From NCBI GenBank assembly GCA_965178125.1, contig OZ237772.1, positions 434,001 through 498,000 on the forward strand: DNA of 64,000 bases, given 5' to 3'. Positions 12,537 through 31,703 of this stretch are shown piece by piece. The stretch is from Bilabrum cf. latius. Taxonomy: Eukaryota. The position numbers and the translations under genes were made by a program. Each line of letters starts with the position of its first letter. Position 1 is the first letter of the stretch. The notes beneath the pieces were generated by a model. The model saw only the letters and a list, made by a program, of their open reading frames with translations. It did no database searches and was not told the origin of the DNA.

Positions 12537-13042
12537 TGCCTACCTGCAAAGACGGATGTATCATTAAAATGTATCGCACACGATCCGTCAGTGCTCCGCG
12601 CGCGACAGATCTGGTCGTGTCGTGAGGGCGGTGTTGTCCTCCAATTCCATCGAATTCGATTACTCTTAGCAGGCATGAAGATTTATCTAGACTACAATCA
12701 AGTACAAGGCCGGTGAAATTTGACTTTAAACTGCAGCATTCGAATAAGCTGCTGCACTCCATCTCGAGGGATCTACCCTAGCAATCCACGCTAACAATTG
12801 GGGTTCTTGCCAGTTTATTTTCGTCGTATCAACGCTTTTCTTATCGGAATGGCCAAAAGTTACAGCACATAGTATAATTTCAACGAAACTCACCCGCAAT
12901 CACGCGAGAATAGCTCGCGAATCGAGTGGTCGGGGTGACGAAGTGCCGGGTTGGATGGTGCGAAACCGAAAATGCGAGTTTCGTGAATGTACGGTGTTGG
13001 TTTGCAAGGAACGGCAACTCCTAGTTTAAACAGTGTCCCACT

Positions 13043-16000
13043 ATGTCCGAAGACGATTCGTTGTGGTTAGTTGTATTTCCAACAATAATATTAGGCCTTG
13101 GGGTGATCGCCGCGTTCATCTGGTCCGTTTATTTCGATGGGAACAGGGCGCAACCAGCAAGCACTTCAGCAGAACCACAGGAGCCGAAAACTGAGGCTTC
13201 AGCGCAAAATGCACCCGAAGAATCGCGACAACTGGATCAGCAAGTAACATCTCGTCCTACTCCGCTCCGCGTGCTGTATGCCACCACGACCGGAACAGCA
13301 GCGCGCATCGCGAAGCGCATCGCCCTGGAGGCACGCGCCCTCTCCGCCCTCACCTCTGAGCTAGAAGTGAGCCTCAGCAGCCTGGACGAGTACGATTAGG
13401 ACAACTTGGAGAAAGAAAGCATGGTCATCCTGGTCCTGCCCACCTGGGAGGGCGGCAAACCCCCGGCCACGGGCTCCGTGTTCTGCCACTGGCTGCAGGA
13501 CATGGCCCTCGATTTCCGAGTGGGCGCCACCTGGCTGGCAGATTCAAATGACGTGGCATTCGCGGTGTGCGGTCTCGGCCACAGCGACTTTGACGAGGAC
13601 TGGTGCCGTGCCGCACTGGAGGCGGACGCCGCGCTGGCCGGGACCGGTGCCCGTCGACTGGTCCCCGCCCTCAAGGGGGACTCAAAGTTGGACATGGAGT
13701 CCCAGGTGGAGGCATGGAAGGGCAAGCTGTGGCCGGTGCTATTGGCAGAAGCCAAGAGGAGGAAAGAGGTGGGTCTCGACCAGCAGGAGGAAGAAGAGGA
13801 GGAGGAGGATGTGCAGGGAGAGGTGGATCCAGCTGAGATCGCAAGGCTGGGTTTACTGGACAAAGCGGGCGTCCAGGAGCCCCGGGTGCATTCCTTGGCA
13901 GCGGCTGGAGCGGCAGCGGCAGCGGAAGGGGGGCAGATGGGCGCGGGTGAAGAAGAAGAAGAAGAGGACGAGGAGGAGACGGACGGGTTTCTCGCAGCTG
14001 CCATGGAAGTGCACGCTACTGCCACGGGTGCATCACGCGACAGTGCCGATGACATGCACGCGGCGTCGATGGCCATGACCGCTGGCATGGGGGCAGCGGG
14101 TGCAGGCGGGGTGCAGGAGGAGGAGGATGAGGAATAGAAGGAAGGTTACGGTGAAGAGGACGAGGATGGCATGGTGGTGGTGCCCCCTGGCATGCAGGTG
14201 GGTGACCCCATCATGGGGTCCAGGGCCCGGAGGAGGGCCCGGAGGGCAGCCCTGCGCAAGGACCGCCGCAAGCGGACCAAGGCGGCGCGCGGGGACGGGG
14301 TGTTGGAGCGGGTGGCGCTGGGGGCGCGGGTGGAGCTGGGGGGCTTAGACCAGGAGGGGCTGGAGATGGCCAGGGAACAAATGGGAGGGGGTGCTGGGGG
14401 CGAGGACGGGGAGCAGGGAGAGGGGCTGGGTGTGGTCAGTGGGGGGGACCTGCCTGCCAGCATGCGGGTGGCGCTGGCGTGGTGGCGCAGGGAACAACTC
14501 GGGGATGGTGTCCCCCTGGCGGGGGCGGGGGCCCAGGGGTCAGGCCTGGGTGGCAAGGGGGGCGTGCGGGCGGGCACAGCCGCCGTGCCCGAGGTCCAGA
14601 TCGAGTCAGCGGCGGATGCGGGTCTGCTGGCGGGCGAGGGCACTGACGCGCTGTCCATGCTGGGAGGGGCTGGGCTGGGGAACAAGGGAGGGGCTGGGCT
14701 GGGGAACAAGGGAGGGGCTGGGCTGGGGAACAAGGGAGGGGCTGGGCTGGGGAACAAGGGAGGGGCTGGGCTGGGGAACAAGGGAGGGGCTGGGCTGGGG
14801 AACAAGGGCGGCGGAGAGGACGACGAAGATGAATCAGGTGCTGGTGATGGGGGCACAACAGCACCAGGCCCAGATTCAGGGTCTGTCAAGTCGAATCCCT
14901 AGGCCCTAGAGGCTGCCAGGCGGGCTGGCGAGATCGCGCGCGCTGCCGACAGGAGGAGGAAGGAAGCTGCCAGGCGCAAGAGGGAGGAGGCCAAGAGGGC
15001 GGCCCTGTCCGCCGACACAGACGAAGACAGGCTCAACGCGCTGCTGATCGAGGCGCACGAGAAGCTGCATGCGGAGGGAGGGGAAGGTGCAGCATCAGCC
15101 GAGGGCCAGGAGGGGCAAGCAGAGTCAAAGGCCGAGGAGGGCCGGGAGAAGGGCCAGGAGCAGGGTGCAAGCAGCGGGGCTGGGTCAAGCAAGCCATCCG
15201 GTTCATCATCTTCTTCTGCTTCCGGCGGCGGGATCGTCGATTTGGAGGACGTGGGTGCTCACGTGGCGGCAGCGGCAGACGCAGCCAAGGTCGCCGAAGA
15301 GCGCGCCATGAAGCTTGGCCATGACTCCCGTCCTGAGATGGTGACGCCCTCCCAGCGGGCCGCTTTGACCAAGGAGGGCTACAAGCTGATCGGGAGCCAC
15401 TCTGCCGTGAAGCTCTGCCGGTGGACCAAGCACCACCTGAGGGGCAGGGGCGGGTGCTACAAGCACACTGCCTACGACATCAAGTCCTACCAGTGCATGG
15501 AGATGACCCCTTCCCTCTCCTGCGCCTCGATGTGCACGTTCTGTTGGAGGCACGGGAAGAATCCGGTGGGGAGGGAGTGGAGGTGGAAGACGGACGAGCC
15601 GAGTGATATCGTGGAGGACGCCATCAGGAAGCACGTGGACATGATCAAGGAGGCCAGGGGCATGCCCGGCATGAAGATGGACCGGTGGCACGAGGCGCAC
15701 ACTGTCAAGCACTGCGCACTGTCTCTCGTCGGTGAGCCCATCATGTACCCCAAGATCAACGAGCTGTGCGGCGAGCTGCACAAGAGGGGCATCAGCTCCT
15801 TCCTGGTGACCAACGCCTAGTTCCCCGAGGCCATCGCAAGGCTGCACCCAGTGACACAGCTGTACGTGTCCATCGACGCCTCCAACAAGGAGGCACTCAG
15901 GGCAGTGGACAGGCCCTTGTTCTCTGATTTCTGGGAGCGGTTCCTGGCGTGTCTCCGGCTCCTGAGAGAGAAGCACCAGAGGACCGTCTACCGCATGACG

Positions 16001-16756
16001 CTGGTGCGCAAGTGGAACATGGCCGATGCGGAGGGGTACTGTGAGCTGGTGAGGCTGGGCAAGCCGGACCTGATCGAGGTGAAAGGGGTGACGTACAGCG
16101 GCAAATCGGGGATCAGCAGCCTGACCATGAAGAACGTTCCTTTCCACGCCGAGGTTCGAGGCTTCTGCCGGGCGCTGTCGGAGCGGCTGGGGGGCGAGTA
16201 CGAGCTCGCCGTGGAGCACGAGCACAGCAACTTCGTGCTGCTTGCGCACAAGCGGTTCAAGATCGAGGGGAGGTGGCACACGTGGATCGACTACGGCAAG
16301 TTCCACGAGCTGTACGGGAGGTGGAAGGCCTCGGGGGGCGAGGCAACCTTCACCACGATGGACTACGTTGCCCCCACGGAGGGTTGGGCCCTGTACGGGG
16401 CCGAGGAGCAGGGGTTTGACCCCAAGGAGATCCGGTTCAGGAGGACCAAGGACGGGGGTGCCAAGAAGGAGAGGCTGCGGCTGGCGGCGGGGGCCACGGA
16501 GGAGGACGCGATGCAGAGGGCCTCCCGGGGAACAACGATCGAGGTGGGGGGCAGGGACGTGGAGAGGGCGGCGAGGCCCGCGATGCCGCTGCTGGAGGGG
16601 TACGGGTCTGCGGCATTCAGGGAACAAGGGGGGTCGCGGGAGGAGGAGGGGAAGCGAGGGGGGGCCGGGGCCGGGGCCGGGGCCGGGGCTGGTGCTGGCG
16701 TGGCATCTTCTTCGGCTACCCGCGGTCAGGAGTTGGAAGAGGTTGTGGATTTTTAA
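13043..16756 (+). CDS. TYW1: tRNA wybutosine-synthesis protein TYW1 (TM anchor, flavodoxin, radical SAM), 1237 aa
   Basis: N-terminal TM segment; flavodoxin motif YATTTGTA; GSHSAVKLCRWTK; CASMCTFC (CxxxCxxC); ALSLVGEP; TNA[TAG]FP. Four in-frame TAGs (13397, 14135, 14900, 15818); ends TAA TAA. Confidence 0.95.
14663..14806 (+). repeat. 24-bp tandem repeat x6 encoding GGAGLGNK in the TYW1 linker
   Basis: GGAGGGGCTGGGCTGGGGAACAAG x6, perfect. Confidence 0.95.
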
Positions 16757-17159
16757 TAATTTTGCGACACGAAGAAGCAAGATTGAATCATAGCGACAAA
16801 CCGTTCAATACTGGTGTTTGCTCGGAATTTCTCCGCAGTGCCGCATTGCGGAACATTTGATTGCGACGAGACATTTCCAAGGATCGATATGCCACCATAT
16901 CTTCAAGGGACCTGTCACATTCCGTAAAATGCAGGATGTCAAGGTATCTCATACAGCTCCATAGGAAGCATGCGCCAGGGTTGACCAAGCCTGTAGCAGC
17001 ACTGCTACTAGAGATGGCAGCGCAATCCATTTATGTGGCATACGCCGCCCGGACTGGAACCGAAGAGAATTTGATGGCTCAAAGACATCGACGCGCGAAG
17101 CCAGGGGAGATTCACTTCTACGCAAAAGAAACTCTTCAGTGGGACCGCCGTCGACAGTA

Positions 17160-17334
17160 TTTAGCAGGTCTGGGGTTACAACCAGTAAGACCGGAACTGT
17201 AGAAACTGGGATTGATTTGCGTGAAGCTCGACTCATCTTCCCGAGGGTACGCCGAGTACAGTGGTCTCGGCCGAGCTCAATAAGACACGTACTACAGGAT
17301 ATTGTAGTTCTGAGTCGGCTTGCAAAAAGTTTTC
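17160..17334 (+). repeat. Ngaro split direct repeat A1 (A2 at 23897-24071)
   Basis: The two copies appear identical by eye. Confidence 0.95.
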
Positions 17335-17364
17335 GGAAAAGTGCGCGTGACTTCACTGTGAAAT

Positions 17365-18554
17365 ATGGCCCAGGTGGAGCAGGGCACACAGGCTGCAGCG
17401 GCTCTATCGCATCTTCAAGGTTCCTAGCCGCACAAGGCATTGATTGCTATCGCAAAGCAAGAATCCGCAAATATTCTGGATAATTGCGTTGGTGAATCCT
17501 GGGAAGCATGGATGGAAACAGCAATGGGCGCCGGAGGTCATGCTGGGTTCATCGAGGCTATCAGCAACCAAGCAGCGGGCGACAAACCAATGGACACGGC
17601 AACAGCAAACGGTCTGGGTAATGACTTTAAGACCTTACTGTCGGTGGGAATGGACGACAACCAGAAGAAACGGGCAGTCCTGATGACGGCCACGGCATGG
17701 GTGATTTCACTGTACGTGAAATTACCTCATCGTCCTACCAAGGAGGAGCTGAAACGAGTTTTGCACGACTGCAAGCGTAACTTCCCTGCTTAGGAAGGAG
17801 CGCAGCTGTCAACAGGTGCAGCTGGATGGTTTGCGGTCCTCACAACGTCTGCGGGCGGTGGGCTCCTACATCAACTACTACGAGCTGCAGCAGTGTTGCA
17901 GTCCGCGTATGGTCCGCTGCGAGCGGCCAAACGGACATCTCTGCTGTCAATGACACGTTTCGCCTCTAATTGGGGGTGGCGACTTACGACTGAGAAGTTG
18001 GAATAGCAGGACAGCTACCCGGACCACGTGCTTGCGAAGGCGATCGCAGCCGTGGTAAACGAACAAAACGCGACACAGGCCCTGGGAGAAGAACAAGACG
18101 ATGCAGATGGGGAAGCTCCTGGAGAGGACCCCGATGACGTCGATGCAGAGGCTGACGAGGTCGAGCAGGTCCAGAAGCTCCCGCCAACAGCTTGGCCCAC
18201 GACCGACGACGCGGCGACCCAGTTCATCACGCAGGAGAAGGCGGCGTGGAGCGCAGCAGGTGATGTTCTACATCGTGCTAACGCCATTGTCGCATGGTGG
18301 GTTCCGCGGCTGGATGCCATGCGTGAGGAGTGCAAGACGGGGGACGGGCGCCAACGCACGGCTCGGATCTTAAAGACGCTCGCCGACGTTCTCCCGGACT
18401 AGAAGATAGGAATATTTCTAGCTGGTAAGGTGGATGACCTGTTCCAGTCGATTCTGCCAAAGGACGAGGAGCTCATGAAGGAAATCGGTAAAATGGCCGT
18501 GAGGGAACTCACGTCAACACTGATGAACCCTGCGGGAGCATCGTCAGGGGCAGC

Positions 18555-18594
<40 letters not shown>

Positions 18595-19935
18595 TTCTGG
18601 GGCGGGGCTGCGGGGAGCGCAGCGAGCGCACCTGAAAAAGCTTAGAGATGGCCTACGTACCGCCTGCAGGCGGTCGTCGCTCACGCCCTTCGTACGACCC
18701 TTCACGACTTGGGCGACAAGCTGAAAACTGCCCGTATGGATTTCGGACATCGGGTGCTGGCAGGCACACAGTACCAGCCTAAGGCAAGTGATACCGCGGT
18801 ACGCGCAGCTCACTCCAGTGTGACTCTCTGGCTGCCCCAGGGAATGAGCTGGGTGTTGGAGTAGCTTGTCGGTCCTATCAATTACCTCCTGCCGCTGTAT
18901 CTGGATGCGGACTCCCACACATATGTCTGGTCGGGCAAGACCACGACGATAACCGCCTACATCCACCGGTTGAGCGAGCGTACTTCAGGTGCGCTGAGGG
19001 CAGCAGGACACGCTGGAGATTGGGATCGGATCGTGAAGGCGGCCGATCGGTTGAACACTATCGTCACTCGTGCAGGAGTCCGGGGGCTGGACGATCTCCC
19101 ACCGTGGGATCGGGCACTGTGGCATGCGTACGCAGGACACCACGCAATGGTGCAGGAGGACGTCTCGGATTTGACATTGAGCAACCCGGAGTCCAAGGAT
19201 ATTACCGCCAGAGCCTTCATTCGATCGGTGCAGGGCGCAGCGGCCGCAGTAAAGGAGCGGTTTGCTCGGAGCGTCAGCATGCAAGGTGGACATTGTGGCT
19301 TGGGCCGCATGGTAGTCGAACTGATGCTCGCCACTAGGATCGGATTCTATCCAGATCTGTCTGCAGCCGATGCGGGGACGATGCAGCTGCTCTTGCGTAG
19401 CATCCCGTCAACTCTCCTCCCAGAGCCACCCAGGCGCGGCCAGGACACCATGGACCGGCAGAATCACCTGATGCCGCACTAGTTGGCAGTATGGCTGGCG
19501 CAATACTTCAACGTGAACACTGGGCCGCTCGGGAGCAGATACCCGGGCAGCGGAGTCCCGCCCACGTCATCGGCATCCAGCGCAACCAGCGGTTCGGGGA
19601 CATCAACGTCCGCCTCGCCAATGGGATCGTCAGCTGCAGCGGGTGCAGCAATGGCCATGCAGATTCACAGCAGCCCCACGAAGATGCATCCGGAGTCGGC
19701 CTTCGCGGCAATGGCAATGCAAGCAGCCAAGCGCGCTCACCACCAGGGCCAGCAGCGCCTGGGGTAGAAGCGCGGGCGGGGCAAGCGCGGGTAGAAGAAA
19801 AACGGGCCGAAGCACAAGCACCACCGGCACGGGAACACGGGACAAGACAATCGTGTCAAGGCAGGTCAAGGCGCGGCGTCTGGCGCAGGTGCGGACGACA
19901 GCGACGACGACGGCGATTCCCAGGCCAGCTCCTAA
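17365..19935 (+). CDS. Ngaro ORF1, putative gag-like protein (856 aa)
   Basis: ATG just downstream of A1; single frame through multiple TAGs; poly-Ser (AGC)n at about 18556-18594; basic C-terminus; ends TAA. The gag assignment is positional only. Confidence 0.75.
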
Positions 19936-22695
19936 AAGGAGGCGAGGGGAGTGGACGAAGTAAAAGCGCGGCTAATCAGCACAGGGGTGCTTTGGGATGA
20001 TTGTGTACAAAGAGGATTTCAATCGCTATCACCCAAACAGCAAGCAGCCAGCGTTCGTATACTCTCCTCATGGCTAGACCACCCCAGAGAGGGCCCCGAC
20101 CCAGACCTGATTGACCTTCTGCGGCTGTTCCCAACGGGACCCCGGGGCCACAAACATCAAGCGGAACGATTCTCGGCCAAGGACTGCAGAAAGCGCGCAA
20201 TCAGCGCCAGCTCACCACGAGTAGCCCAGTAGTGGCTCCGGGCGGCGCTTCGGCGAGATTTGGGATGCATGCGGGAGGCGGAGCATACGCCACCCCCCAG
20301 GCGAGCACGAGCCCTTGCAGAACATCTACTAGCGGCGCGACGACAGCACCCCCAGCGCGAGGCGCAGAAGGGCCAGGTCGAAGTGCAGCCGCGGTAGTAG
20401 GAAGCAGCACGAACATCAGCACCGACGTAGCAGCAGCAAGGCGGCAGAGTGCCTCCGACGTTCGCACTAGAAGGAGAGGTCCGACTAGGTCACGGCGAAG
20501 GGGGACTCATACTGCCTGTCAAATCCACGGGACCATCCCTTGATGCTAGAGTTAGCCTTGGGGGGACCCGGGAGGAGGCCTCGAGGAATTAGTCGTCCGC
20601 TGTAAAGCAGGCCACCCAGGAGCGAACTCTTGTAGCCCGTCAGGGAGCCAGAGCAGAGCACACCGAGAGGGCTATTGTGGAGCAACGTAGCGGCATGAAC
20701 TCGCAGAGCAGCGCACTGAGGAGCATGCAAGTGCACAGTGGGGACAAACTGTATTGGATGCATCTAGCTACATGCTCAGACTGCACCGCGCAGTTTTGTC
20801 CGGTGGCAGAGGTGTTGCACGTCTTAGGCAAGTATGGCGCGCCTTTCCACTGGTACCTCGAGCCTGACGCAGCGATCAAGGCTCCACGAGACGGTGGAGA
20901 CGTCGACTGGCACGAGGGTACCTTGACCCAATCAGCCCTGTCCACTGAGATTCGAAAGCAGGCAGAGGCAGGATTCATTCGAGTTACATCGGCACCGGCA
21001 ACATCAGATATGCCGAGAGCCTTTCTGGTCCGGAAATACGCTTGGAAGCTCACCCCCGGCGTGGGCATGCAGCGACGCACAGTACCAAGTGAGAAGGCCA
21101 GGCTCGTCGTGGATTTCTCGGGACTACGACCACATGCAGCATAGCTGCATTTTGGGCTAGATGGACCAGCAGAATTTGCAGCTCAATTGGATCCAGGGTC
21201 ATGGATATATAGTTGGGACGTGGCAAAAGCTTTCTATGCCTTCAAGGCTCACCCGGCTTCCTGGAACTTCACGTGGTTCAGCGCGAACGGCCTAGCGGCA
21301 CATTTTTTTCGCATGCCGATGGGAATGGTGCACTCGCCCATCCATCTACAGACAGCCACCGAGTCGTTGGCGGACATCATCCGAGCAAAGCGCTTCCTTC
21401 AGTCGGTATACATGGACGATTTCGCCGGGGGAGAACGACAAGCACCAGCGGCATGGGCGGGTATGTTCACCTCCGTCCTCACCGCACGACAGGCAGGTTT
21501 CAGCATGAGCATCAGCAAACTGACATTGCCAAGCCAAAAGATGCGTTTCCTGGGAATGGATATCTCGACGTCACCTACGATCGACGCGCGAGCCCCACCG
21601 GACAAGCAGAAGGATCTCGCAATCACGTTGAAGGCCACGATGCGGGCATCAAGGCAACGACTGCGCATTCCAGTTGACCTACTGGAACATCTGTAGGGGA
21701 AGGCGCTAGCGTATGCAGGAGGCAGTAGGGGCCAGATGGCCCGCAGTGCGGCACTCGTCGTTGTGGCAAACGAAGCCAAACGGAACGGCAGCAACGCATT
21801 CCTACGCCCAGATATAGCGCGAGCAGTACAAACTCTCCAGGGGATGCTAATGCGAGACGCAACTACGTCGATGTCAAAGCTCTTGGGTATAAATACTGAG
21901 CGGAGCGCTCCAGATCCCCAGGATGCCGCATGCGGACTCGGAGCCAAACCGGGATCGAAGTCTGGCGCCATTTCGATATTCGGCAGTTCAGACGCTAGTG
22001 TATCCACCGGAGCTATCAGTATTGGAAGGCCAATTTGTTCAGCCCTAGTGTTTCCACTTCCCCGAGATATTTGGGGAACGGAAGGTAGCACGGACCCGGA
22101 GAAGTCATCAACAGCCCGTGAGACCATAGTAGCAGCAACGGGAGCACTCAGAGCAGCTCTGCAGTGCAGACCAAGCACTCCGACTACAATATATTGGGAT
22201 TGTGATAACGCTGGAACTTGTGTCCAGTTGTGCACCTTCAGGGGCTCCACAGTTAGGACGCAAGCAACCCTGACGAGGCTAGCGGATATCCTGGATTCTA
22301 GGAAAATTACACTTGTTCCACGGCATCTACCACGCAGCAAGCCTTGGGTAGCTGCTAACGACGCACTTGGAAAGGCTGACCACGCCACAGCTCACACATT
22401 GTGGGGGCAAGCAGGAGTATCCACGGTGACGGTCACGTGTTGTGAGGAGACGATACTGTTGCATCCGTTGATCAAGGGAAAGGAGTGGCCTCCGTCGCAG
22501 CCAGAATTGCTCGCCGCCCTGCACCAAGCAGCAGATGGACACACGAGACGATCAGATTGCAGCAAAGGTATGCACCATGATGAAGAGCCTGACGGAGGCG
22601 ACCACACGGCCGCGGGTGGAGCACCGCCCTCCAGCCCGCTCGGCGGATCTGGCGGGAGCCATCGCCCTCAGCATGATCAAGACCAAGGAGACTGA
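19936..22695 (+). CDS. Ngaro reverse transcriptase/RNase H (first in-frame ATG at 20269)
   Basis: KARLVVDF, WDVAKAFY, RMPMGMVHSP, YMDDF, FLGMDI; RNase H motifs SDAS, STARE, DCDN, NDAL; TAGs at 21142 and 21694 lie inside the domains; ends TGA. Confidence 0.9.
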
Positions 22696-23668
22696 AGATA
22701 AGAAGCGGAAAAGCATCGCCAAGTTCAAGAAGTACGCCAGCGAGGCACGAGACGAGTCCCCCACACGCTGCTCTTCCATCCTGAGCTACCTGTACGTCAG
22801 GGTTAGGGACGACAAGGTCGGCGAGGGCACCATCAAGAGAGAATTTGGCCACTTGGTCGAGCATTTTTTGGAGATTGGCGCCCCGATTGCCGACGAAACA
22901 ATGCGGCTGGGTCGGAAATTACCGAAAGGGCGGGCCAAGTAGCTGCACCTACTCGGCAACCGCCGGAAGCGAGCACGAGTGATCCCAACCGAGGACGTGA
23001 TGTACGTCAATGATCAAGTCATCAAGATGGGTTCAGACAAGGAGCTCTGCGCTTGGGATGCGTTCATCCATGGCTGCATCATCCTTGGGCGATCCAAGGA
23101 AATCCTGAACCTGAAGCTAGGAGACTTGCAAGAGTATAAGTCCAAGGACAGTACATGGGTCGTGGCCAGCATGCGTCGCAAAACAACCAAGGACAGAGAT
23201 GAACCAGAGCAGGCCGTCATTCCGCTGGACGATGGTGGCCCATTTCGAGTTGCCGAGCTCGCAGCTCTGGGCATGCGCGCACGAGCGAGAGCGCTGACAG
23301 CGATGAGAGCCCGGAACCCGACGAATACGGCACTCACGAGCACGTCAGGAGCAAGTGGACTACGCTTCATCAACCCGGATGCGCGAAAGACTGGGAAATG
23401 GCATCCCAAGAGCTGGACAGCAACTATGCGGAGCATTCTTACCAAGTACCGGCGGCCAGGCACGCCAGTGATCAGGTTCACTACGCACTCAACGAGGCGA
23501 ACGGGAGCCACCATGGCGGCGGAAGGGGGCATTTCAATTGAGCAATTGATGCAACAAGCTGCGTGGCGGTCACCCGAGACAGCGAACTACTATCTGGGCA
23601 TGAGCACCAGATCGAGGGCAAGAGCGATGCTCGCGGCCTACCGGGGAGCAGTCACAGCAGCAAGTTAA
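22535..23668 (+). CDS. Ngaro tyrosine recombinase
   Basis: GRSKE, HSTRR, AAWRS and NYY match the R-HxxR-W-Y catalytic set; TAG at 22940 is read through; overlaps the 3' end of pol; ends TAA. Confidence 0.92.
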
Positions 23669-23743
23669 CGTGACCCACAGGTCAGTATGCGTAGGGCGGC
23701 AAGCCGCAGTGGCCACAGGTGGCCAAATCTGCGGGTCAGTACG

Positions 23744-23896
23744 GCGCAGGCTGCACCAGCAGCCGGGTCCCCTTGTGGCACCACGGGTGGTCAACCGCCC
23801 GAGGAGCCGGGACCCAGCGCGCCCTCGCATTTATCTAGCAACCCTAACCGGAGGTTCTAGAACTGATTCGATGTAACGTACAAATCAATGTCAGTT
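23744..23896 (+). repeat. Ngaro split direct repeat B1 (B2 at 24623-24775)
   Basis: The two 153-bp copies appear identical; B1 abuts A2. Confidence 0.95.
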
Positions 23897-26800
23897 TTTA
23901 GCAGGTCTGGGGTTACAACCAGTAAGACCGGAACTGTAGAAACTGGGATTGATTTGCGTGAAGCTCGACTCATCTTCCCGAGGGTACGCCGAGTACAGTG
24001 GTCTCGGCCGAGCTCAATAAGACACGTACTACAGGATATTGTAGTTCTGAGTCGGCTTGCAAAAAGTTTTCCCGCCCACCCGCAAAGTGTAGAGGAAGTA
24101 GAAGGATGAGGGTCATGACTCTGGGCCCGAGTTGGGAGCAGTGGACTACGCGGCACCACGACGGTTGGAGCGCGATGGACTGCCCAGGGCCAGCGAGGTG
24201 GCACACAGCGACAGCGCACCCGGCAGGGCAGAGGGCATGGCACACAATCAGGGACATGAGAGGCGCCACCGGACGCCGGCGGGCGGCACTCAGAAAGCGC
24301 GTGATCTTGGCGGCATCGACTCAGCCAGCAAGTCACTCGCGGACAGTCAGCAGAAAGAGGGGTCGTCATCTCACGGAGAGGGCGGCACCTAGGCGTGGAC
24401 GAGTTTCTACCGGAACAATTTGGGTCTTTCTAGTTCAGGCCATGCAGACACTCTGACGGATTTGGATGTAGGGGTCGTCACCTCACTGAGAGGGCGGCAC
24501 CGAGCTCGGGTGACTTTTCCCAGCCATAGGCTGGGTGTTTAGAACTTCGAGCGCATCTGCTTGCATTGTATGAATTGAATAATACCTCCGGTGGGTAGGC
24601 ACTTTGCTTACCCGCGTCAGGCGCGCAGGCTGCACCAGCAGCCGGGTCCCCTTGTGGCACCACGGGTGGTCAACCGCCCGAGGAGCCGGGACCCAGCGCG
24701 CCCTCGCATTTATCTAGCAACCCTAACCGGAGGTTCTAGAACTGATTCGATGTAACGTACAAATCAATGTCAGTTTAGACAAGAGGCGTATGCAGCGACA
24801 CTCGGGGAAAACCAGGCTTGGTCCTCGCTTCAAGCGTTCCCGCTGACGGAAGCACACGACTGTTTGCCCCTGTCTAGCATGGATGGAACCGCACATAGCA
24901 AGAGAGCAATTCACCCATGCTTTAGTAGGCCATGATGATCCCTGTGCCAGCGCTGCTGGCTCGGGTTTCGGCGAAACCCGAGCAAGCCAAGAGCAAGCAG
25001 TTCGTTGGAAAATCCAAGAGGGATTCGGTTGGTACGGTCATATAGGGTGTTGGACCTCTTGCAGTTCAGTCAAATGCGACTCTCCGACGGCACGACGCAT
25101 CGTAGCAAGGGGCGAGTAGCACCGTTGGGCTCGCCAAACTAGCAACCTAGTCCCTACTAGTATCTCCCCATGGTTGCTGCTCGATGCAGATTGCAGCCAC
25201 AAACATTAAGCCAGGAGGGGAAACACGTTCCCACGCGAGGCCAATCAGAAGGGCTGGCCGTGCAACAGTGCACAGAAACCGGCGTTGCGGCTCTGCAAGT
25301 ACAACTAGACTCTTCTAGTAGAGCTAGTACTGGTAGTACTTCGGAATAGACCCGGCTGGGATGCAGCTTGCACCGAACGGCGAAATGTTGCGCTTCACAA
25401 GAGGCCGAAAACGGTCTCGAAGTTACGAAACCAGTTACAGCAAGCCTTTTATGTCGGAAAAATAGGTGCCTACTAGTAGCACTGGCGACTGGCCGGCTTT
25501 GACTGCACATGGATGGCTGGATGCTCGCGAATCGGCTAGTGCAAGGGCGACCAAGTCAAGGCGAGTTGAAAATAGTCGAGCGGGGAAAGCCAAAGCGAGC
25601 ACATCCATGAACCGGTTGGCTGAATTGGCAAATGCTGCCGCTGCAGCGATTGGGCGAGCGCGCGTGCTCTCATCAACGGCTCAAACCCAAGAAGGACCAT
25701 CGGCTCAACCGTTTGGGGCGCTCAGCGATTGCACGCTTGCCGATCGAGCTCAGTTATGGCCCCCAAAGACCCCAAGCTCTCACTGGATGCAGCTGCGGGC
25801 CGCAGCGCAAGAAGTTCGGGCGGCTCTAGAAGCTGCCAGCAAATCTGGGTAGCACTCAGCCCCTGTGCCAACGCCGTCCGGCTGCTCGGCAGTACGGCCA
25901 CTGGCAGCTCACAGTGATGGAGCAAGTGTGCGCCCCATCAATGCTGGTATCCCTAGACGCACTGTCATGTGTAGTAGTCTCTATGCCGCAGGGGTTGCAA
26001 TGGATCGAGGCACCACCGGCATAAAGCTTCGCCCACCGCGACTTCACTCTGACGTCGACTGTAGTACGTTGCAAACCAACACCGCGTCGGCTATGTCGGC
26101 TATTGGTGCAGGCGCCAGTTCATGTACCGCTGCCTTTAGTACTAGCACCAGACCCAGCGTGATCATGAGCCCCAGCACCAGCCCCAGCACCAGCCCGAGC
26201 CCAGCACCAGCACCAGCACCACCAGCAGCACCAGCACCAGCACCAGCACCAGCACCACCAGCAGCACCAGCACCAGCATGAGCACCAGCACCACCAGCAG
26301 CACCAGCACCAGCATGAGCACCAGCCCCAGCACCAGCACCAGCACCCGCGTGAGCACCAGCATCAGCAGCCACGGTACCGGAGCTAAAACCAGGACCCGG
26401 TCCATGGACCCGGCCTCAGCGCTGATACGCGCGACCCGGGGCTGGGGCCAGACCCAACCCATAAAGCCCGTGGCGGCAGCTGAGATTGCTTGTGGTGCTG
26501 CTACGGCTCAACGGTGTGCCCCCTCGATTGAGGAACTACCGCGGGCTTTTCCACGTGTATCAAACGCGCACCGCTCGACTGCAGCGCGGGGATCATCAGG
26601 GGGTACAGTTTAGGCCATTCGCCCACTGACAGTGCCGCTGTGTGCTTATAGCCGCATGCATCGCTTCGTGCCTGCACAGGCCTGCATGGAGCAACAGGCC
26701 AAACACCAGATGCGGGGATGGCCAGTGATTCGCCAAGATTGGCACACTCTGACGGCCGATGCGCTTGGTCTGCCCCTATGTGGGGAAAGCCATTCAGAAT

Positions 26801-27335
26801 CGGATTCGTGCAGCTCTCTCAGCAACGGGACAGGGGAGGACGAAGAGGGGAGTGGCCCCAGCCCTCGATGGGACGAGGGCCGGTTCGATCCGAGCCAGTG
26901 GCAGGTTGGTGGTGAACCCACGGACGGAGGAAATCGCGAGTCCCAGTCCCTGGACTAAGCCACCCACGGGGGGGGGGGGCAGCCAAGGTTGCGTATGTTT
27001 CTCATTTATACTTGCTTGCAGGTTTTATTTCGATTCATATGGATCCCGGATCGGATGGCGTCTGACCTTGCTTTTTCCCAGACTTCGAGTCAGGTCACCG
27101 GCTTGCCCGCCCAGTTATAAATCATCAACCGGTAGCGGCACCGCCAAACACCGCCTCTGCCTAAGCTACCAGTGAACGATTTGCTGCCGGTTCCGCTTGC
27201 ACATTCCCTTCGGCATCCCTGCGACTCACTGCAATGCCAATCCTCGCCCCCTTGCCATCCCTGACGAAGCCGTGCTCATCGACCTGAGCAACGGCACGGT
27301 TGCCCTTCCCTAGCACCACGCTTGCTCGCTACAAG

Positions 27336-28706
27336 ATGATCGGGAGCCACTCTGCCGTGAAGCTCTGCCGGTGGACCAAGCACCACCTCAGGGGCAGGGG
27401 CGGGTGCTACAAGCACACTGCCTACGACATCAAGTCCTACCAGTGCATGGAGATGACCCCTTCCCTCTCCTGCGCCTCCATGTGCACGTTCTGCTGGAGG
27501 CACGGGAAGAACCCGGTGGGGAGGGAGTGGAGGTGGAAGACGGACGAGCCGAGTGATATCGTGGAGGACGCCATCAAGAAGCACGTGGACATGATCAAGG
27601 AGGCCAGGGGCATGCCCGGCATGAAGATGGACCGGTGGCACGAGGCCCACACTGTCAAGCACTGCGCACTGTCTCTCGTGGGTGAGCCCATCATGTACCC
27701 CAAGATCAACGAGCTGTGCGGCGAGCTGCACAAGAGGGGCATCAGCTCCTTCCTGGTGACCAACGCCCAGTTCCCCGAGGCCATCGCAAGGCTGCACCCC
27801 GTGACACAGCTGTACGTGTCCATCGACGCCTCCAACAAGGAGGCACTCAGGGCAGTGGACAGGCCCTTGTTCTCTGATTTCTGGGAGCGGTTCCTGGCGT
27901 GTCTCCGGCTCCTGAGAGAGAAGCACCAGAGGACCGTCTACCGCATGACGCTGGTGCGCAAGTGGAACATGGCCGATGCGGAGGGGTACTGTGAGCTGGT
28001 GAGGCTGGGCAAGCCGGACCTGATCGAGGTGAAAGGGGTGACGTACAGCGGCAAATCGGGGATCAGCAGCCTGACCATGAAGAACGTTCCTTTCCACGCC
28101 GAGGTTCGAGGCTTCTGCCGGGCGCTGTCGGAGCGGCTGGGGGGCGAGTACGAGCTCGCCGTGGAGCACGAGCACAGCAACTTCGTGCTGCTTGCGCACA
28201 AGCGGTTCAAGATCGAGGGGAGGTGGCACACGTGGATCGACTACGGCAAGTTCCACGAGCTGTACGGGAGGTGGAAGGCCTCGGGGGGCGAGGCAACCTT
28301 CACCACGATGGACTACGTTGCCCCCACGGAGGGTTGGGCCCTGTACGGGGCCGAGGAGCAGGGGTTTGACCCCAAGGAGATCCGGTTCAGGAGGACCAAG
28401 GACGGGGGTGCCAAGAAGGAGAGGCTGCGGCTGGCGGCGGGGGCCACGGAGGAGGACGCGATGCAGAGGGCCTCCCGGGGAACAACGATCGAGGTGGGGG
28501 GCAGGGACGTGGAGAGGGCGGCGAGGCCCGCGATGCCGCTGCTGGAGGGGTACGGGTCTGCGGCATTCAGGGAACAAGGGGGGTCGCGGGAGGAGGAGGG
28601 GAAGCGAGGGGGGGCCGGTGCCGGGGCCGGGGCCGGGGCTGGTGCTGGCGTGGCATCTTCTTCGGCTACCCGCGGTCAGGGGTTGGCGGAGGTTGCGGAT
28701 TTTTGA
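27336..28706 (+). CDS. TYW1: Truncated TYW1 duplicate, radical-SAM domain only (456 aa)
   Basis: Near-identical to 15386-16756; CTG->ATG at 27336 gives a start codon at the duplication junction; ends TGA. Expression is unknown. Confidence 0.65.
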   Translation: MIGSHSAVKLCRWTKHHLRGRGGCYKHTAYDIKSYQCMEMTPSLSCASMCTFCWRHGKNPVGREWRWKTDEPSDIVEDAIKKHVDMIKEARGMPGMKMDRWHEAHTVKHCALSLVGEPIMYPKINELCGELHKRGISSFLVTNAQFPEAIARLHPVTQLYVSIDASNKEALRAVDRPLFSDFWERFLACLRLLREKHQRTVYRMTLVRKWNMADAEGYCELVRLGKPDLIEVKGVTYSGKSGISSLTMKNVPFHAEVRGFCRALSERLGGEYELAVEHEHSNFVLLAHKRFKIEGRWHTWIDYGKFHELYGRWKASGGEATFTTMDYVAPTEGWALYGAEEQGFDPKEIRFRRTKDGGAKKERLRLAAGATEEDAMQRASRGTTIEVGGRDVERAARPAMPLLEGYGSAAFREQGGSREEEGKRGGAGAGAGAGAGAGVASSSATRGQGLAEVADF

Positions 28707-28880
28707 TAATTTTGCGACACGAAGATTCAAGAGTGAATCATATCGACAAACCGTTCGATGCTGGTGTTTGCTCGGAATTTTTCGGCACCATTCTAACCGG
28801 CAGAACATTTGATTGCGACGAGACATTTCCAAGGATCGGTATACAACCATATCTTCAAGGTACCTGTCACATTCCGTAAA

Positions 28881-31478
28881 ATGTAGGATATCAAGGTGTC
28901 TCATACAGCTCCATAGGAAGCATGCGCCAGGGCTGACCAAGCCCGTAGCAGCACTGCTACTAGAGATGGCAGCGCAATCCATTGTGGCACGCGCCCGGAC
29001 TGGCACCGAAGAGAATCTGGTGGCTCAAAGACATCGACGCGCGAAGCCAGGGGAGATTCACTTCTACGCAAAAGATACTCTTCAGTGCGACCGCCGTCGA
29101 CAGGGTAGACAAGAGGCGTATGCAGCGACACTCGGGGAAAACCAGGCTTGGTTCTCGCTTCAAGCCAAACTCCCCTTGTTTGCACTGCCAGTGGCATCGG
29201 AACCCAGACAAAATTGGCCGGGCAAGACGAACGCATTCTAGTCAACACGTTTAGTCAGAGCGCAGTTCCCAATAGCAGTCAACTACGCCGCACGGCGGTA
29301 AGTCGTGAGCCCAACACCGTTCCCGCTGACGGAAGCACACGACTGTTTGCCCCTGTCTAGCATGGATGGAACCGCACGTAGCATGAAAGCAATTCACCCA
29401 TGCTTTAGTAGGCCATGATGATCCCTGTGCCAGCGCTGCTGGCTCGCGTTTCGGCCGAGCAAGCCCAGAGCATGCGGTTCGGAGAAACCAAGAGGGATAC
29501 GGATGGTACGGTCATATAGGGTGTTGGGCCTCTTGCGGTTCAGCCAGACGTGCAAACATCTGAATCAGAATCGGTAATTTTCGGACAGAGCGACTCATTG
29601 TATCGTCGGATTTTGAGGGCGAGGAAGCAAATGGCGCGCAGCACTGTTGGGCTTGCAACCTAGTCCCCATTAGTATCTCCCCATGGTTGCTGCTCGCCGT
29701 GGAGTGCAGCAACAAATTTATAGCCAGTAGAGGACACACATTCCCACGCGAGGCCGATTGGGAGGGCTGGTCGTGCAGCGTGGCTAGGAAGTCGGCGTGA
29801 CGGCTCTATGGACCCGGGCATGCAGCCGAACGGCGAAACTCTGCGCTCCACAATATGCCGAAAACGGTCTCGAGGTTACAGCAAATCGAAGAGAAAGGTT
29901 CCTACAAGTGGTTCGCCGGCATTGCCTACACCTGGATGGCTGGATGCTAGCGAATCAGCTAGTGCAAGGGCGACCAAGTCAAGGCGAGTTGAAAATAGTC
30001 GAGCGGGGAAAGCAAAAGCGAGCACATCCATGAACGCGTTGACTGACTTGGCAAATGCTGCCGCTGCAGCGATTGGGCGAACGCGCTGGCTCTCATCAAC
30101 GGCTCAAACCCGAGAAGGACCATCGGCTCAACCGTTTGGGGCGCTCAGCGATTGCACGCTTGCCGATCGAGCTCAGTTACGGCCCTCAAAGTCCGCAAAC
30201 TCTCACTGGATGCAGCTGCGGGCCGCAGCGCAAGAAGTTCGGGCGGCTCTAGAAGCTGCCAGCAAATCTGGGTAGCACTCAGCCCCTGTGCTAACGCCGT
30301 CCGGCTGCTCGGCACTACTGCCACTGGCAGCCCACAGTGATCAATATAGCGTGCGCCTTATCAATGCTGGTATCCCTAGGCGCACTGACATTTGTAGTAG
30401 TCTCTATGCCGCAGGGGTTGTAACGAAGCGAGGCACCACCGGCGTGGAGCTTCGCCCGCCGCAATTTCACTCTGACGTCGACTGTTGTACGTTGCAAACC
30501 AGCACCCAGTCGGTTATGGCGGCTACTGGTACCGGTGTCAGACCATGTACCGCTGCCTCTGGTACTAGCACAAGGTCCAGCGTGAGCACCAGCACCAGCA
30601 CCAGCACCAGCACCAGCACCAGCACCAGCACCAGCACCAGCACCAGCACCAGCACCAGCACCAGCACCAGCACCAGCACCAGCACCAGCACCAGCACCAG
30701 CACCACCGCCAGCACCCGCGTGAGCACCAGCATCAGCAGCCACATTGCAGGAGCTGAAACCAGGACTCGGTCCATGGACCCGGCCTCAGCGCTGACACGC
30801 ACGACCCGGGGCTGGGGACAGATCCAGTCGATGGAGCCCGTTGCGGCAGCTGAGATTGCTTACGGTACTGCTACGGCTCAACGGGGTGCCCCCTCGATTG
30901 AGGAACTAGCGCGGGCTTTTCCACGTGTACCAAACGCGCACCACTCGACTGCAGCGCGGAGATCATCAGGGAGATTCAGTTCAGGCCATTCGCTCACCGA
31001 CAGTGCCGTTGTATGTGTGTAGCCGCATGCATCGCTTCGTGTTCGAATAGGCCTGCATGGAGCAGCAGGTCATATACCAGCTGCGGGGATGGCCAGTGAT
31101 TCGCCCAGATTGGCACACTCTGACGGCCGAATATCCGGCGTTAATACAGCTAGCGATACTTATGCGTTTAACTTGGGAGGGCTGGACATACAGTTGCCTT
31201 CCTTGACGCCAGCGGATGGGTCCGGCAGTACAGAGTCCGAGCTAGCAGCCCATCAGGTTGTCAAGCCCCTGCCACCGGATGCGCTTGGTCTGCCCCTATG
31301 TGGGGAAAGCCATTCAGAATCGGATTCGTGCAGCTCTCTCAGCAACGGGACAGGGGAGGACGAAGAGGGGAGTGGCTCCAGCCCTCGATGGGACGAGGGC
31401 CGGTTCGATCCGAGCCAGTGGCAGGTGGGTGGTGAACCCACGGACGATGGAAATCGTGAGTCCCAGCCACCAGACTGA
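28881..31478 (+). CDS. Gene X: hypothetical low-complexity protein with (Ser-Thr)n tract, 865 aa
   Basis: ATG TAG GAT...; the frame is free of TAA/TGA for 2.6 kb and contains many TAGs; ends TGA. Confidence 0.7.
30585..30705 (+). repeat. (AGCACC)n hexamer microsatellite, about 20 copies
   Basis: Seen directly; a degenerate counterpart lies at about 26165-26345. Confidence 0.95.
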
Positions 31479-31703
31479 GCCAAGGTTGATTTTGTTTCTT
31501 AATTAATACTACACTGGCTTGCAGGTTTTATTTCGATTCGTATGCCGGATCCTATTACAGGATCGGATGGCGCCTTGCGGGTTACCCTTACCCTTACTTG
31601 TCCTAGAGTTCAAGATCCGGATGGGTCACCCGCTTGCACACCAAGTTGTTGTGTGCCGATCGTGGTATTCAATTTTCCAGCATCCGGATAGGGTTATAAA
31701 TCA

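What the first reader, a model, noticed from the sequence alone, without database searches (positions are those of the whole stretch)
15818..31478. Internal control for the code: duplicate copies swap TAG<->CAG at Gln sites and TAA<->TGA at stops
Seen: the conserved TYW1 motif TNAQFP uses TAG at 15818-20 in the full-length gene and CAG at 27768-70 in the duplicate. Codon 2 of gene X is CAG at 16932-34 and TAG at 28884-86 in the intact copy. Stops swap TAA (16754) <-> TGA (28704) and TAA (26956) <-> TGA (31476). In both Gln swaps the apparently functional copy carries the TAG, so it behaves as a synonymous Gln codon.
Basis: seen in the sequence. Interest (0 to 1): 0.85.

Follow-up and report, generated by a model that had tools for sequence, protein, structure and literature searches.

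The report
TAG read as glutamine, duplicate-gene control
This stretch comes from an unidentified GC-rich, intron-poor eukaryote that reads the stop codon TAG as glutamine while TAA and TGA still end genes, a rare genetic code, and a tandem gene duplication in the window shows TAG and CAG being exchanged like synonymous codons.

Summary
All eight coordinates are correct. The region is a tandem duplication, 15378-27329 and 27328-31908. The unit holds the 3' half of TYW1, an unknown gene X and the tail of the next gene. Copy 1 of gene X is split by a 7.6-kb retroelement.

The full-length TYW1 has TAG where 120 of 120 eukaryotic homologues have Gln. A metagenomic relative, L001, has CAG there and TAG at a second column that is Gln in 120 of 120. 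From first ATGs, 14 of 19 ORFs carry 89 in-frame TAG. Their stops are 14 TGA and 5 TAA.

The TYW1 swap is a good control. Between the copies, 8 of 10 unambiguous differences in the conserved part are synonymous. The outgroup makes TAG the derived state in the full-length gene. The gene X swap is not diagnostic, because that pair diverges about neutrally and also swaps TAG with AAG.

The code type is already known from Iotanema spirale and two ciliates. The lineage here is unplaced. No tRNA, eRF1 or protein evidence was available.

The parts
12926..16756 (+). Full-length TYW1 ORF (first ATG at 13043): flavodoxin, radical SAM and wyosine-formation domains, with a long low-complexity linker. It has 5 in-frame TAG in the ORF, 4 of them after the first ATG.
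   Evidence: Pfam gives Flavodoxin_1 at 116-264, Radical_SAM at 863-1041 and Wyosine_form at 1045-1108.
15818..15820 (+). TAG codon (residue 965) in the motif TNAQFP
   Evidence: The column is Gln in 120 of 120 homologues. The T is confirmed in contigs of X2, X5 and X8. It is the derived state relative to L001.
16754..16759 (+). TAA TAA double stop of full-length TYW1
   Evidence: L001 also ends TAA TAA.
15378..27329 (.). Copy 1 of the tandem duplication unit: TYW1 3' half, gene X with the retroelement, and a duplicated 216-nt tail of the next gene at 27114-27329
15851..16668 (+). 818-nt tract identical between the two TYW1 copies, probably recent gene conversion
   Evidence: P=3e-8 for zero differences at the rate of the neighbouring 473 nt.
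27328..31908 (.). Copy 2 of the tandem duplication unit
   Evidence: The contig depth of the shared TYW1 part (85) is about 1.8 times that of the flanks (48-56) in X2.
27336..28706 (+). Truncated TYW1 paralogue without the flavodoxin domain. Its ATG at 27336 arose from CTG, 8 nt inside the duplication boundary. It has no TAG and stops at TGA TAA.
27768..27770 (+). CAG codon at the TNAQFP glutamine in the short copy
   Evidence: It is the same state as the relative L001.
16929..17157 (+). Gene X copy 1, 5' part (ATG CAG...), cut by the retroelement after 17157
17158..24776 (+). 7619-bp retroelement with a tyrosine-recombinase ORF (DIRS/Ngaro/PAT-like). ORFs: gag-like 17365-19935, RT 19951-22695, recombinase 22535-23668. 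Split direct repeats: 17155-17334 = 23892-24071 and 23744-23897 = 24623-24776. It is multicopy.
   Evidence: (joint 17157 to 24776, depth 3-15 times that of unique DNA)
24777..26958 (+). Gene X copy 1, remainder. It is frameshifted (ORFs 24767-26281 and 26122-26958 lie in different frames) and ends in TAA at 26956-26958.
28881..31478 (+). Gene X copy 2: intact 865-codon ORF of no known family, with 12 in-frame TAG (the first at 28884-28886) and a TGA stop at 31476-31478
   Evidence: The chance of such an open frame is 6e-8.
31704..35543 (-). 1279-codon membrane-protein gene with 10 in-frame TAG. Its last 205 nt lie inside the duplicated unit. Its orthologue directly follows TYW1 in L001.

Best explanation
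The window is nuclear DNA of a compact, intron-poor, GC-rich eukaryote whose cytoplasmic translation reads UAG as glutamine and keeps UAA and UGA as terminators. Inside it, a roughly 4.5-kb segment was duplicated in tandem. The segment runs from the middle of TYW1, through the lineage-specific gene X, to the tail of the next gene. The upstream copy kept the full-length TYW1, but its gene X was later split by a retroelement and frameshifted. The downstream copy kept an intact gene X and a flavodoxin-less TYW1 that gained its own ATG. Because CAG and TAG are synonymous in this organism, a C-to-T transition at the invariant glutamine of TNAQFP was fixed in the full-length TYW1, while the short copy and a related species keep CAG. 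At the two stop positions, TAA and TGA were exchanged by single A/G transitions without loss of termination. Shown here: the anatomy, the glutamine meaning of TAG at conserved columns, the stop usage, and the constraint on both TYW1 copies. Inferred only: a tRNA-Gln with anticodon CUA and an eRF1 that has lost UAG recognition.
For: 1. TAG=Q reading opens frames of 3796, 1279, 1276 and 1098 codons. The standard code gives at most 873.
2. From first ATGs there are 89 TAG, 403 CAG and 157 CAA in 15,208 codons. TAG occurs in 14 of 19 ORFs. The stops are 14 TGA, 5 TAA and 0 TAG.
3. TAG965 and TAG158 lie inside the Pfam radical-SAM and flavodoxin alignments.
4. Column 965 is Gln in 120 of 120 homologues. 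Column 158 is Gln in 47 of 96 non-gap rows.
5. The relative L001 (83% amino-acid identity) has CAG at 965 and its only TAG in the TYW1 match at column 978, which is also Gln in 120 of 120. Only 3 of 162 columns that are at least 95% conserved are Gln, so the chance of both hits is 3.4e-4.
6. The two TYW1 copies over 15378-16668 show 8 synonymous differences, 2 conservative nonsynonymous ones and the TAG/CAG swap. P=7e-4 under neutrality and 0.0045 if only one copy were constrained.
7. The outgroup makes TAG derived in copy 1 and the TGA stop derived in copy 2.
8. TAA follows the stop within 2 codons in 5 of 20 genes (P=3.5e-7), and no TAG occurs within 8 codons.
9. No host gene is split by a single TAA.
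10. Public gene calls for near-identical copies of the DDE transposase end exactly before TAG75 and TAG250.
11. The T at 15818 is present in contigs of three studies.
Against: No tRNA gene lies in the window, and no genome was available to look for tRNA-Gln(CUA) or eRF1. There is no transcript or peptide evidence.

Only two invariant Gln columns, one per species, carry TAG. The other TAG positions fall in variable regions or in poorly aligned proteins, where TAG pairs with S, N, E, R and H as well as CAA. In the transposase alignment TAG504 sits in a column with K 13, Q 11 of 51.

One small gene (57984-58460, minus strand) has TAG as its last codon before TGA, so residual termination at TAG cannot be excluded.

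Stops cannot be TAG by the way the ORFs were defined.

The copy-2 letters, including C 27768, were not seen in any laid run.
Confidence: 0.9

Rival explanations
1. The code is ambiguous. UAG is read as glutamine in most contexts but still terminates some genes, or is a leaky stop read through at useful frequency, as in context-dependent codes.
For: The PH-domain gene at 57984-58460 ends ...GAC TAG TGA. ORF calling cannot show a TAG terminator. No C-terminus that is conserved among homologues could be examined in the window.
Against: TAG makes up 13.7% (89 of 649) of TAG+CAG+CAA codons and lies within catalytic domains. In 20 genes, none has TAG within 8 codons after its stop, whereas TAA and TGA backups are common. 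18 TAG sit in one 3796-codon frame.
Confidence: 0.07
2. TAG is a sense codon for an amino acid other than glutamine (Leu, Glu, Lys, Tyr, Trp or pyrrolysine).
For: UAG=Leu exists in a rhizarian and in some ciliates (abstracts of PMC5304391 and PMC11687900). TAG pairs with AAG twice in gene X and once in a retroelement variant. In the transposase, the TAG504 column has K 13 against Q 11.
Against: Both TAG codons that fall on highly conserved TYW1 columns fall on two of the three Gln columns. The paralogue and the orthologue have CAG or CAA at these sites and at two further sites. The TAG/AAG cases are in sequences that diverge about neutrally.
Confidence: 0.02
3. The TAGs are not translated as such. 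They would be assembly errors, mutations in pseudogenes, intron sequence, or sites of U-to-C RNA editing that restores CAG.
For: No RNA or protein data could be tied to these genes. A C/T difference is the commonest kind of error or mutation.
Against: The T at 15818 recurs in contigs of three studies. A related contig from another collection has 7 in-frame TAG in two genes. Frames of up to 3796 codons are free of TAA and TGA. TAG965 lies in a gapless conserved motif, so it is not in an intron. Two of the runs with T at 15818 are guessed, not shown, to be RNA.
Confidence: 0.02
4. The stretch belongs to a giant DNA virus that reads TAG as glutamine, like those noted earlier in this scan, and not to a cellular genome.
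For: Genes are dense and intronless, with intergenic gaps of 80-270 bp. There are ankyrin, F-box-like/WD40 and orphan genes. Earlier notes describe giant viruses with the same code.
Against: A multicopy retroelement with reverse transcriptase, at 3-15 times unique depth, is inserted here. TYW1 is 69% identical to cellular homologues. There is a nucleolar-type DEAD-box helicase tail and PH-domain genes, and no viral hallmark gene in the Pfam scans.
Confidence: 0.03

Closest known systems
Nuclear code of Iotanema spirale (Fornicata): UAG=Gln, UAA and UGA stops (PMC5304391; abstract and section 7 read)
   Same: The codon assignments are the same. UAG is decoupled from UAA. In-frame UAG lies at conserved glutamine positions. 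No UAG terminators were seen.
   Different: I. spirale ends 104 of 119 examined genes with UAA and 15 with UGA. Here the stops are 14 TGA and 5 TAA, and the DNA is 51-70% GC in 2-kb windows. The TYW1 tree did not place the window near any named taxon. Fornicate sequences were not knowingly in that tree.
Phyllopharyngean ciliates Hartmannula sinica and Trochilia petrani: UAG=Gln (PMC11687900; abstract and introduction read)
   Same: UAG alone is reassigned to glutamine, and UAA is kept as a stop.
   Different: The paper reports UAA as the preferred stop in those ciliates. This window has long gene-dense DNA with a retroelement, TGA as the main stop and high GC. No ciliate affinity was seen among the TYW1 hits.
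UAR=Gln codes (many ciliates, hexamitin diplomonads, some ulvophyte green algae; as summarised in PMC11687900 and PMC2984419, introduction and listing abstract seen). Aphelids are recalled from memory only.
   Same: A stop codon is captured by glutamine through a single-step C/T relation to CAG.
   Different: There, UAA is also glutamine. Here TAA ends 5 of 19 genes, serves as a backup stop and never splits a host gene.
TAG=Gln in viruses: gut phages (PMC9523058, listing abstract only) and giant viruses noted earlier in this scan (e1-5306704, e1-5483507, e1-5483497)
   Same: The assignment is the same: TAG=Gln with TAA and TGA as stops.
   Different: Those are viral genomes whose hosts use another code or are unknown. 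This is most likely a cellular genome. No link between them was tested.
Trypanosoma brucei TYW1S, a flavodoxin-less TYW1 paralogue that arose by duplication (PMC4417183; passages read)
   Same: A eukaryote keeps a long TYW1 with a flavodoxin domain and a short radical-SAM-only paralogue, like archaeal Taw1.
   Different: TbTYW1S is old, mitochondrial and experimentally shown to work. The short copy here is a recent tandem duplicate (dS about 0.07-0.08) with no presequence, and no expression data could be tied to it.

Membership tests
Nuclear code UAG=Gln with UAA/UGA stops (Iotanema type; old NCBI table 15) | In-frame TAG inside conserved coding sequence | tested here: met
   There are 89 TAG in 14 of 19 ORFs. 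TAG158 and TAG965 lie inside the Pfam flavodoxin and radical-SAM alignments.
Nuclear code UAG=Gln with UAA/UGA stops (Iotanema type; old NCBI table 15) | TAG corresponds to conserved glutamine | tested here: met
   Column 965 is Gln in 120 of 120. The relative's TAG is at column 978, Gln in 120 of 120. Column 158 is Gln in 47 of 96. The paralogue and the orthologue have CAG. Only two hyperconserved sites were available.
Nuclear code UAG=Gln with UAA/UGA stops (Iotanema type; old NCBI table 15) | UAA is kept as a terminator and is not sense | tested here: met
   5 of 19 stops are TAA. TAA and TGA are exchanged at two orthologous stop positions. There is a TAA backup within 2 codons in 5 of 20 genes. 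The only same-frame ORF pair of at least 150 codons each that is split by one TAA among annotated genes is the retroelement gag/RT pair.
Nuclear code UAG=Gln with UAA/UGA stops (Iotanema type; old NCBI table 15) | UAG is never used as a terminator | tested here: inconclusive
   ORF definition hides TAG stops. One gene ends TAG TGA. No conserved C-terminus could be examined.
Nuclear code UAG=Gln with UAA/UGA stops (Iotanema type; old NCBI table 15) | Cognate tRNA-Gln(CUA) and an eRF1 altered in UAG recognition | not testable with these tools
   No tRNA lies in the window and no genome is held. The GTS-motif change of I. spirale eRF1 is described in PMC9161772 (passage read).
TYW1 (tRNA 4-demethylwyosine synthase) | Radical-SAM core with a CxxxCxxC cluster motif and a wyosine-formation domain, plus an N-terminal flavodoxin domain in eukaryotes | tested here: met
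   Pfam finds PF00258, PF04055 and PF08608, all above their cut-offs. CASMCTFC is seen in the translation. The match to archaeal structure 2YX0 has E=4e-62. The short copy lacks only the flavodoxin part.
Tyrosine-recombinase retrotransposons (DIRS/Ngaro/PAT-like) | Reverse transcriptase plus tyrosine recombinase, split direct repeats with an internal end-to-start junction, and no target-site duplication | tested here: inconclusive
   RVT_1 scores 28.1 bits (cut-off 29.6) and Phage_integrase 21.2 bits (cut-off 27.1), both below cut-off. The split direct repeats and the junction at about 23890 are present, and there is no duplication at the ends. No homologue was found by the word-based search.

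The most novel reading that the evidence does not exclude
This is a previously unreported, independent origin of the UAG-only glutamine code in a GC-rich, compact-genome eukaryotic lineage that is neither a ciliate nor a fornicate. At least one environmental relative (L001) shares the code. TGA rather than TAA is the main stop. CAG/TAG exchange is still going on at invariant sites. Such a lineage would also be a candidate host group for the giant viruses that this scan found reading TAG as glutamine.
Probability: 0.4. Interest if true: 0.8.

Novelty: new member of a known kind. Interest (0 to 1): 0.62.

Why it matters
Codes in which UAG and UAA have different meanings are rare. The papers read here list one fornicate, one rhizarian and a few ciliates. 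Each new case tests the idea that the two codons are mechanistically coupled.

A GC-rich organism that ends most genes with UGA would be a contrasting background to the UAA-terminating cases. It apparently grows well enough to give deep coverage in a sequencing run, which would make it a usable system for studying how eRF1 and a CUA-anticodon tRNA separate UAG from UAA.

There is also a practical consequence. Standard-code gene calling shatters these genes. Public protein fragments of the transposase in this window end exactly at TAG, so annotation of this genome and its relatives needs the variant table.

The duplicate pair gives a clean within-genome demonstration: TAG arose from CAG at an invariant catalytic-domain glutamine while both paralogues stayed under purifying selection.

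Tried and rejected
- **Whole genome.** None is held for this window, so tRNA-Gln(CUA), eRF1 and rRNA could not be sought.
- **RNA genes in the window.** ARAGORN and Rfam found nothing.
- **Earlier scan notes.** There were none for this genome or for its retroelement.
- **RNA runs.** No RNA holder is listed.
- **First read-laying request.** The tool proposed asking for the parts beside it, and 12900-26160 was laid instead.
- **Limits of that lay.** X5, X7 and X8 gave no cover on 24861-26160. No run showed copy-2 letters at the ten variant places of TYW1. So CAG 27768 and expression of either copy remain unverified.
- **Summed ORF length by code.** This does not single out TAG, because removing TGA also opens many frames in GC-rich DNA. 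Only the longest frames and homology are diagnostic.
- **Retroelement variant.** A variant in the contigs differs at 28 codons (10 synonymous, 18 nonsynonymous) and includes AAG to TAG. This was uninformative.
- **RT ORF homologues.** The word-based search (residues 300-860) found none.
- **DDE transposase profile-free search.** It gave 416 hits, but the TAG columns are variable: TAG266 has Q in 4 of 6, and TAG504 has K 13, Q 11 of 51.
- **Lineage.** The TYW1 tree (53 rows chosen from 122 proteins, quick method) groups the window (SH-aLRT 95) only with unnamed sequences. One of their clusters holds a protein labelled Symbiodinium sp. KB8. Named dinoflagellate, oomycete, chytrid and animal sequences lie elsewhere. 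No lineage is claimed.
- **TAA also sense (UAR=Gln).** Rejected.
- **Literature.** Five searches found no report of this code in a GC-rich eukaryote that is neither a ciliate nor a fornicate. Subscription journals and all supplementary tables were not visible and may hold one.

Full report
**Observation.**
Every coordinate in the finding is right. The full-length gene reads ACC AAC GCC TAG TTC CCC at 15809-15826, and the duplicate reads ACC AAC GCC CAG TTC CCC at 27759-27776. Gene X starts ATG CAG at 16929 in the first copy and ATG TAG at 28881 in the second. The TYW1 frames end TAA (16754) and TGA (28704), each followed by TAA. The gene X frames end TAA (26956) and TGA (31476).

**Anatomy.**
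- Self-comparison shows a tandem duplication. Copy 1 is 15378-27329 and copy 2 is 27328-31908.
- The unit starts in the middle of TYW1, contains gene X, and ends 205 nt inside the 3' end of the minus-strand gene 31704-35543. The tail of that gene is therefore present twice (27114-27329 and 31693-31908, 91% identical).
- Copy 1 keeps the full-length TYW1: ORF 12926-16756, first ATG 13043, with flavodoxin, radical-SAM and wyosine-formation domains.
- Gene X of copy 1 is interrupted after 17157 by a 7619-bp element (17158-24776). The element carries a gag-like ORF, a reverse-transcriptase ORF, a tyrosine-recombinase ORF and split direct repeats. Further on, gene X of copy 1 is frameshifted.
- Copy 2 has an intact 865-codon gene X. 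It also has a TYW1 that begins at a new ATG (27336, CTG in copy 1), 8 nt inside the duplication boundary, and lacks the flavodoxin domain.
- Contigs of run X2 cover the shared TYW1 part at depth 85, against 48-56 on the unique flanks. A contig in X2 and one in X8 join 17157 to 24776 with GG between, which is the empty-site form of copy 2. Both results fit a real duplication better than two alleles.

**The code.**
- Reading TAG as sense opens frames of 3796, 1279, 1276 and 1098 codons. The longest standard-code frame has 873.
- Counting from first ATGs, 19 ORFs hold 89 TAG, 403 CAG and 157 CAA in 15,208 codons. 14 of the 19 have at least one TAG. 14 end in TGA and 5 in TAA.
- TAG158 and TAG965 of TYW1 lie inside the Pfam flavodoxin and radical-SAM alignments.
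- In a MAFFT alignment with the 120 listed homologues, column 965 is Gln in 120 of 120. Column 158 is Gln in 47 of 96 non-gap rows, with Pro in 29. The other three TAG fall in lineage-specific insertions.
- In archaeal structures the 965 position is Thr or Ile, so this glutamine is a eukaryotic invariant.

**A relative.**
- One metagenome contig, L001 (3270 bp), encodes a TYW1 that is 83% identical. It is directly followed by the orthologue of the 31704-35543 gene, with no gene X between them.
- L001 has CAG at column 965. Its only in-frame TAG within the TYW1 match is at column 978, in TQLYVSID. There both window copies have CAG, and 120 of 120 homologues have Gln.
- Only 3 of the 162 columns that are at least 95% conserved are Gln. 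The chance that two TAG on such columns both hit Gln columns is 3.4e-4.
- The second L001 gene has 6 further TAG. The alignment to the window orthologue is poor (34% identity). There TAG pairs with CAA twice and with S, N, E, R and H elsewhere.
- L001's TYW1 ends TAA TAA, like copy 1. The code is therefore shared by at least two species.

**TAA and TGA.**
- TAA is a stop, not a second glutamine codon. It ends 5 of 19 genes.
- It is exchanged with TGA at both duplicated stop positions.
- It follows the stop within two codons in 5 of 20 genes. About 0.14 would be expected from its frequency (P=3.5e-7).
- No TAG occurs within 8 codons after any stop.
- Among annotated genes, only the retroelement's gag and RT ORFs form a pair of long same-frame ORFs separated by a single TAA.

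**How good is the internal control?**
- Over 15378-16668 the copies differ at 11 places: 8 plainly synonymous, 2 conservative replacements (L/M at the new start, R/K) and the TAG/CAG swap.
- Eight synonymous of ten has P=1e-4 if both copies were neutral, and P=0.0045 if one were neutral and the other fully constrained.
- In the first 473 nt, seven synonymous differences over 98.7 synonymous sites give dS of about 0.07. That is close to the 9-10% divergence of the non-TYW1 parts. dN is 0.005.
- An 818-nt tract (15851-16668) is identical (P=3e-8), which suggests recent gene conversion.
- Both copies therefore seem to have stayed under purifying selection, and the swap behaves like the other synonymous changes.
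- With L001 as outgroup, the T at 15818 is derived in the full-length copy, and the TGA stop is derived in copy 2. L001 is 75% identical at the nucleotide level, so homoplasy is possible.
- A flavodoxin-less TYW1 paralogue has a precedent in Trypanosoma brucei TYW1S (PMC4417183, passages read).

For gene X the control is weak.
- Of 866 codons of copy 2, 556 are identical in copy 1, 42 differ synonymously, 144 differ nonsynonymously and 124 are gapped. That is roughly neutral divergence.
- Of the 12 TAG in copy 2, 9 are TAG in copy 1, one is CAG, one is AAG and one is in a gap. One AAG of copy 2 is TAG in copy 1.
- The intact frame is real (chance 6e-8), but a swap in it proves little.

**Independent reads.**
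Contigs of X2, X5 and X8 (three studies) carry T at 15818 with no other difference over at least 1265 nt. The copy-2 letters were not displayed in any run. Contigs may drop them, so C 27768 rests on the window.

**Who is it?**
- The best TYW1 matches are oomycetes at 69% identity.
- In a tree of 53 rows, the window groups (SH-aLRT 95) with unnamed sequences only and lies outside the oomycetes. One neighbouring cluster holds a protein labelled Symbiodinium sp. KB8, whereas another dinoflagellate sequence lies elsewhere.
- The DNA is 51-70% GC. The conserved genes show no intron, and intergenic gaps are 80-270 bp. I leave the lineage open.

**Comparison with what is known.**
- UAG=Gln with UAA kept as a stop is described for Iotanema spirale (PMC5304391, abstract and section 7). 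It is also described for Hartmannula sinica and Trochilia petrani (PMC11687900, abstract and introduction).
- I. spirale terminates mostly with UAA (104 of 119). This window terminates mostly with TGA.
- Five literature searches found no report for an organism like this one. Supplements were closed, and subscription journals are not covered.
- Earlier notes of this scan describe giant viruses that read TAG as Gln and have unknown hosts. That is a lead only.

**Verdict.**
The code type is known, so this is a new member of a known kind, provided the lineage is indeed unreported. The mechanism (a tRNA-Gln with anticodon CUA and a changed eRF1) is inferred, not shown.

Noticed in passing
window 17158-24776: An apparently intact 7619-bp retroelement with tyrosine recombinase and split direct repeats (17155-17334 = 23892-24071; 23744-23897 = 24623-24776). 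It has no target duplication. Its depth is 3-15 times that of unique DNA in four runs. A word-based search found no protein homologues.
   Followed up: partly
window 19933-19935: The gag-like ORF (17365-19935) and the RT ORF (19951-22695) are in the same frame and are separated by a single TAA. This suggests gag-pol expression by TAA readthrough in an organism where TAG is already sense. The recombinase ORF is in the +1 frame and overlaps the RT end by about 160 nt.
   Followed up: partly
L001 1-3270 compared with window 12926-35543: In the relative, TYW1 is followed after about 270 bp by the membrane-protein gene. Gene X and the duplication are absent, so gene X was gained in the window's lineage or lost in the relative's.
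   Followed up: partly
window 27336-28706: The short TYW1 copy has a new ATG just inside the duplication boundary and differs from the long copy mostly at synonymous sites. It may be a young functional flavodoxin-less paralogue.
   Followed up: partly
window 15851-16668 and 27801-28618: An 818-nt tract is identical between the copies, next to segments with about 2% differences. This is probably recent gene conversion.
   Followed up: partly
window 57984-58460 (minus strand): A small PH-domain gene ends with TAG immediately followed by TGA. It is the only place in the window where TAG could still act as a terminator.
   Followed up: no
window 3192-4616 (minus) and 4788-7139 (plus): Two divergently oriented transposase-like genes (the second matches DDE_1) carry 5 and 10 in-frame TAG. 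Public protein fragments 95-99% identical to the second one end exactly before TAG75 and TAG250, so standard-code gene calling has split this family.
   Followed up: partly
window 14662-14808: A perfect 24-bp tandem repeat (6.1 copies) encodes (GLGNKGGA)n in a roughly 560-residue low-complexity linker between the flavodoxin and radical-SAM domains of TYW1. The homologues listed in the search table are 378-781 residues long.
   Followed up: no
window 35623-47013: A 3796-codon ORF of low-complexity and coiled-coil sequence has no Pfam match and 18 in-frame TAG. It starts only 80 bp from the divergent gene 31704-35543.
   Followed up: no
window 26168-26368 and 30585-30738: (AGCACC)n microsatellites inside gene X encode Ser/Thr runs. 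Their length differs between the copies, and the frameshift of copy 1 lies here.
   Followed up: no
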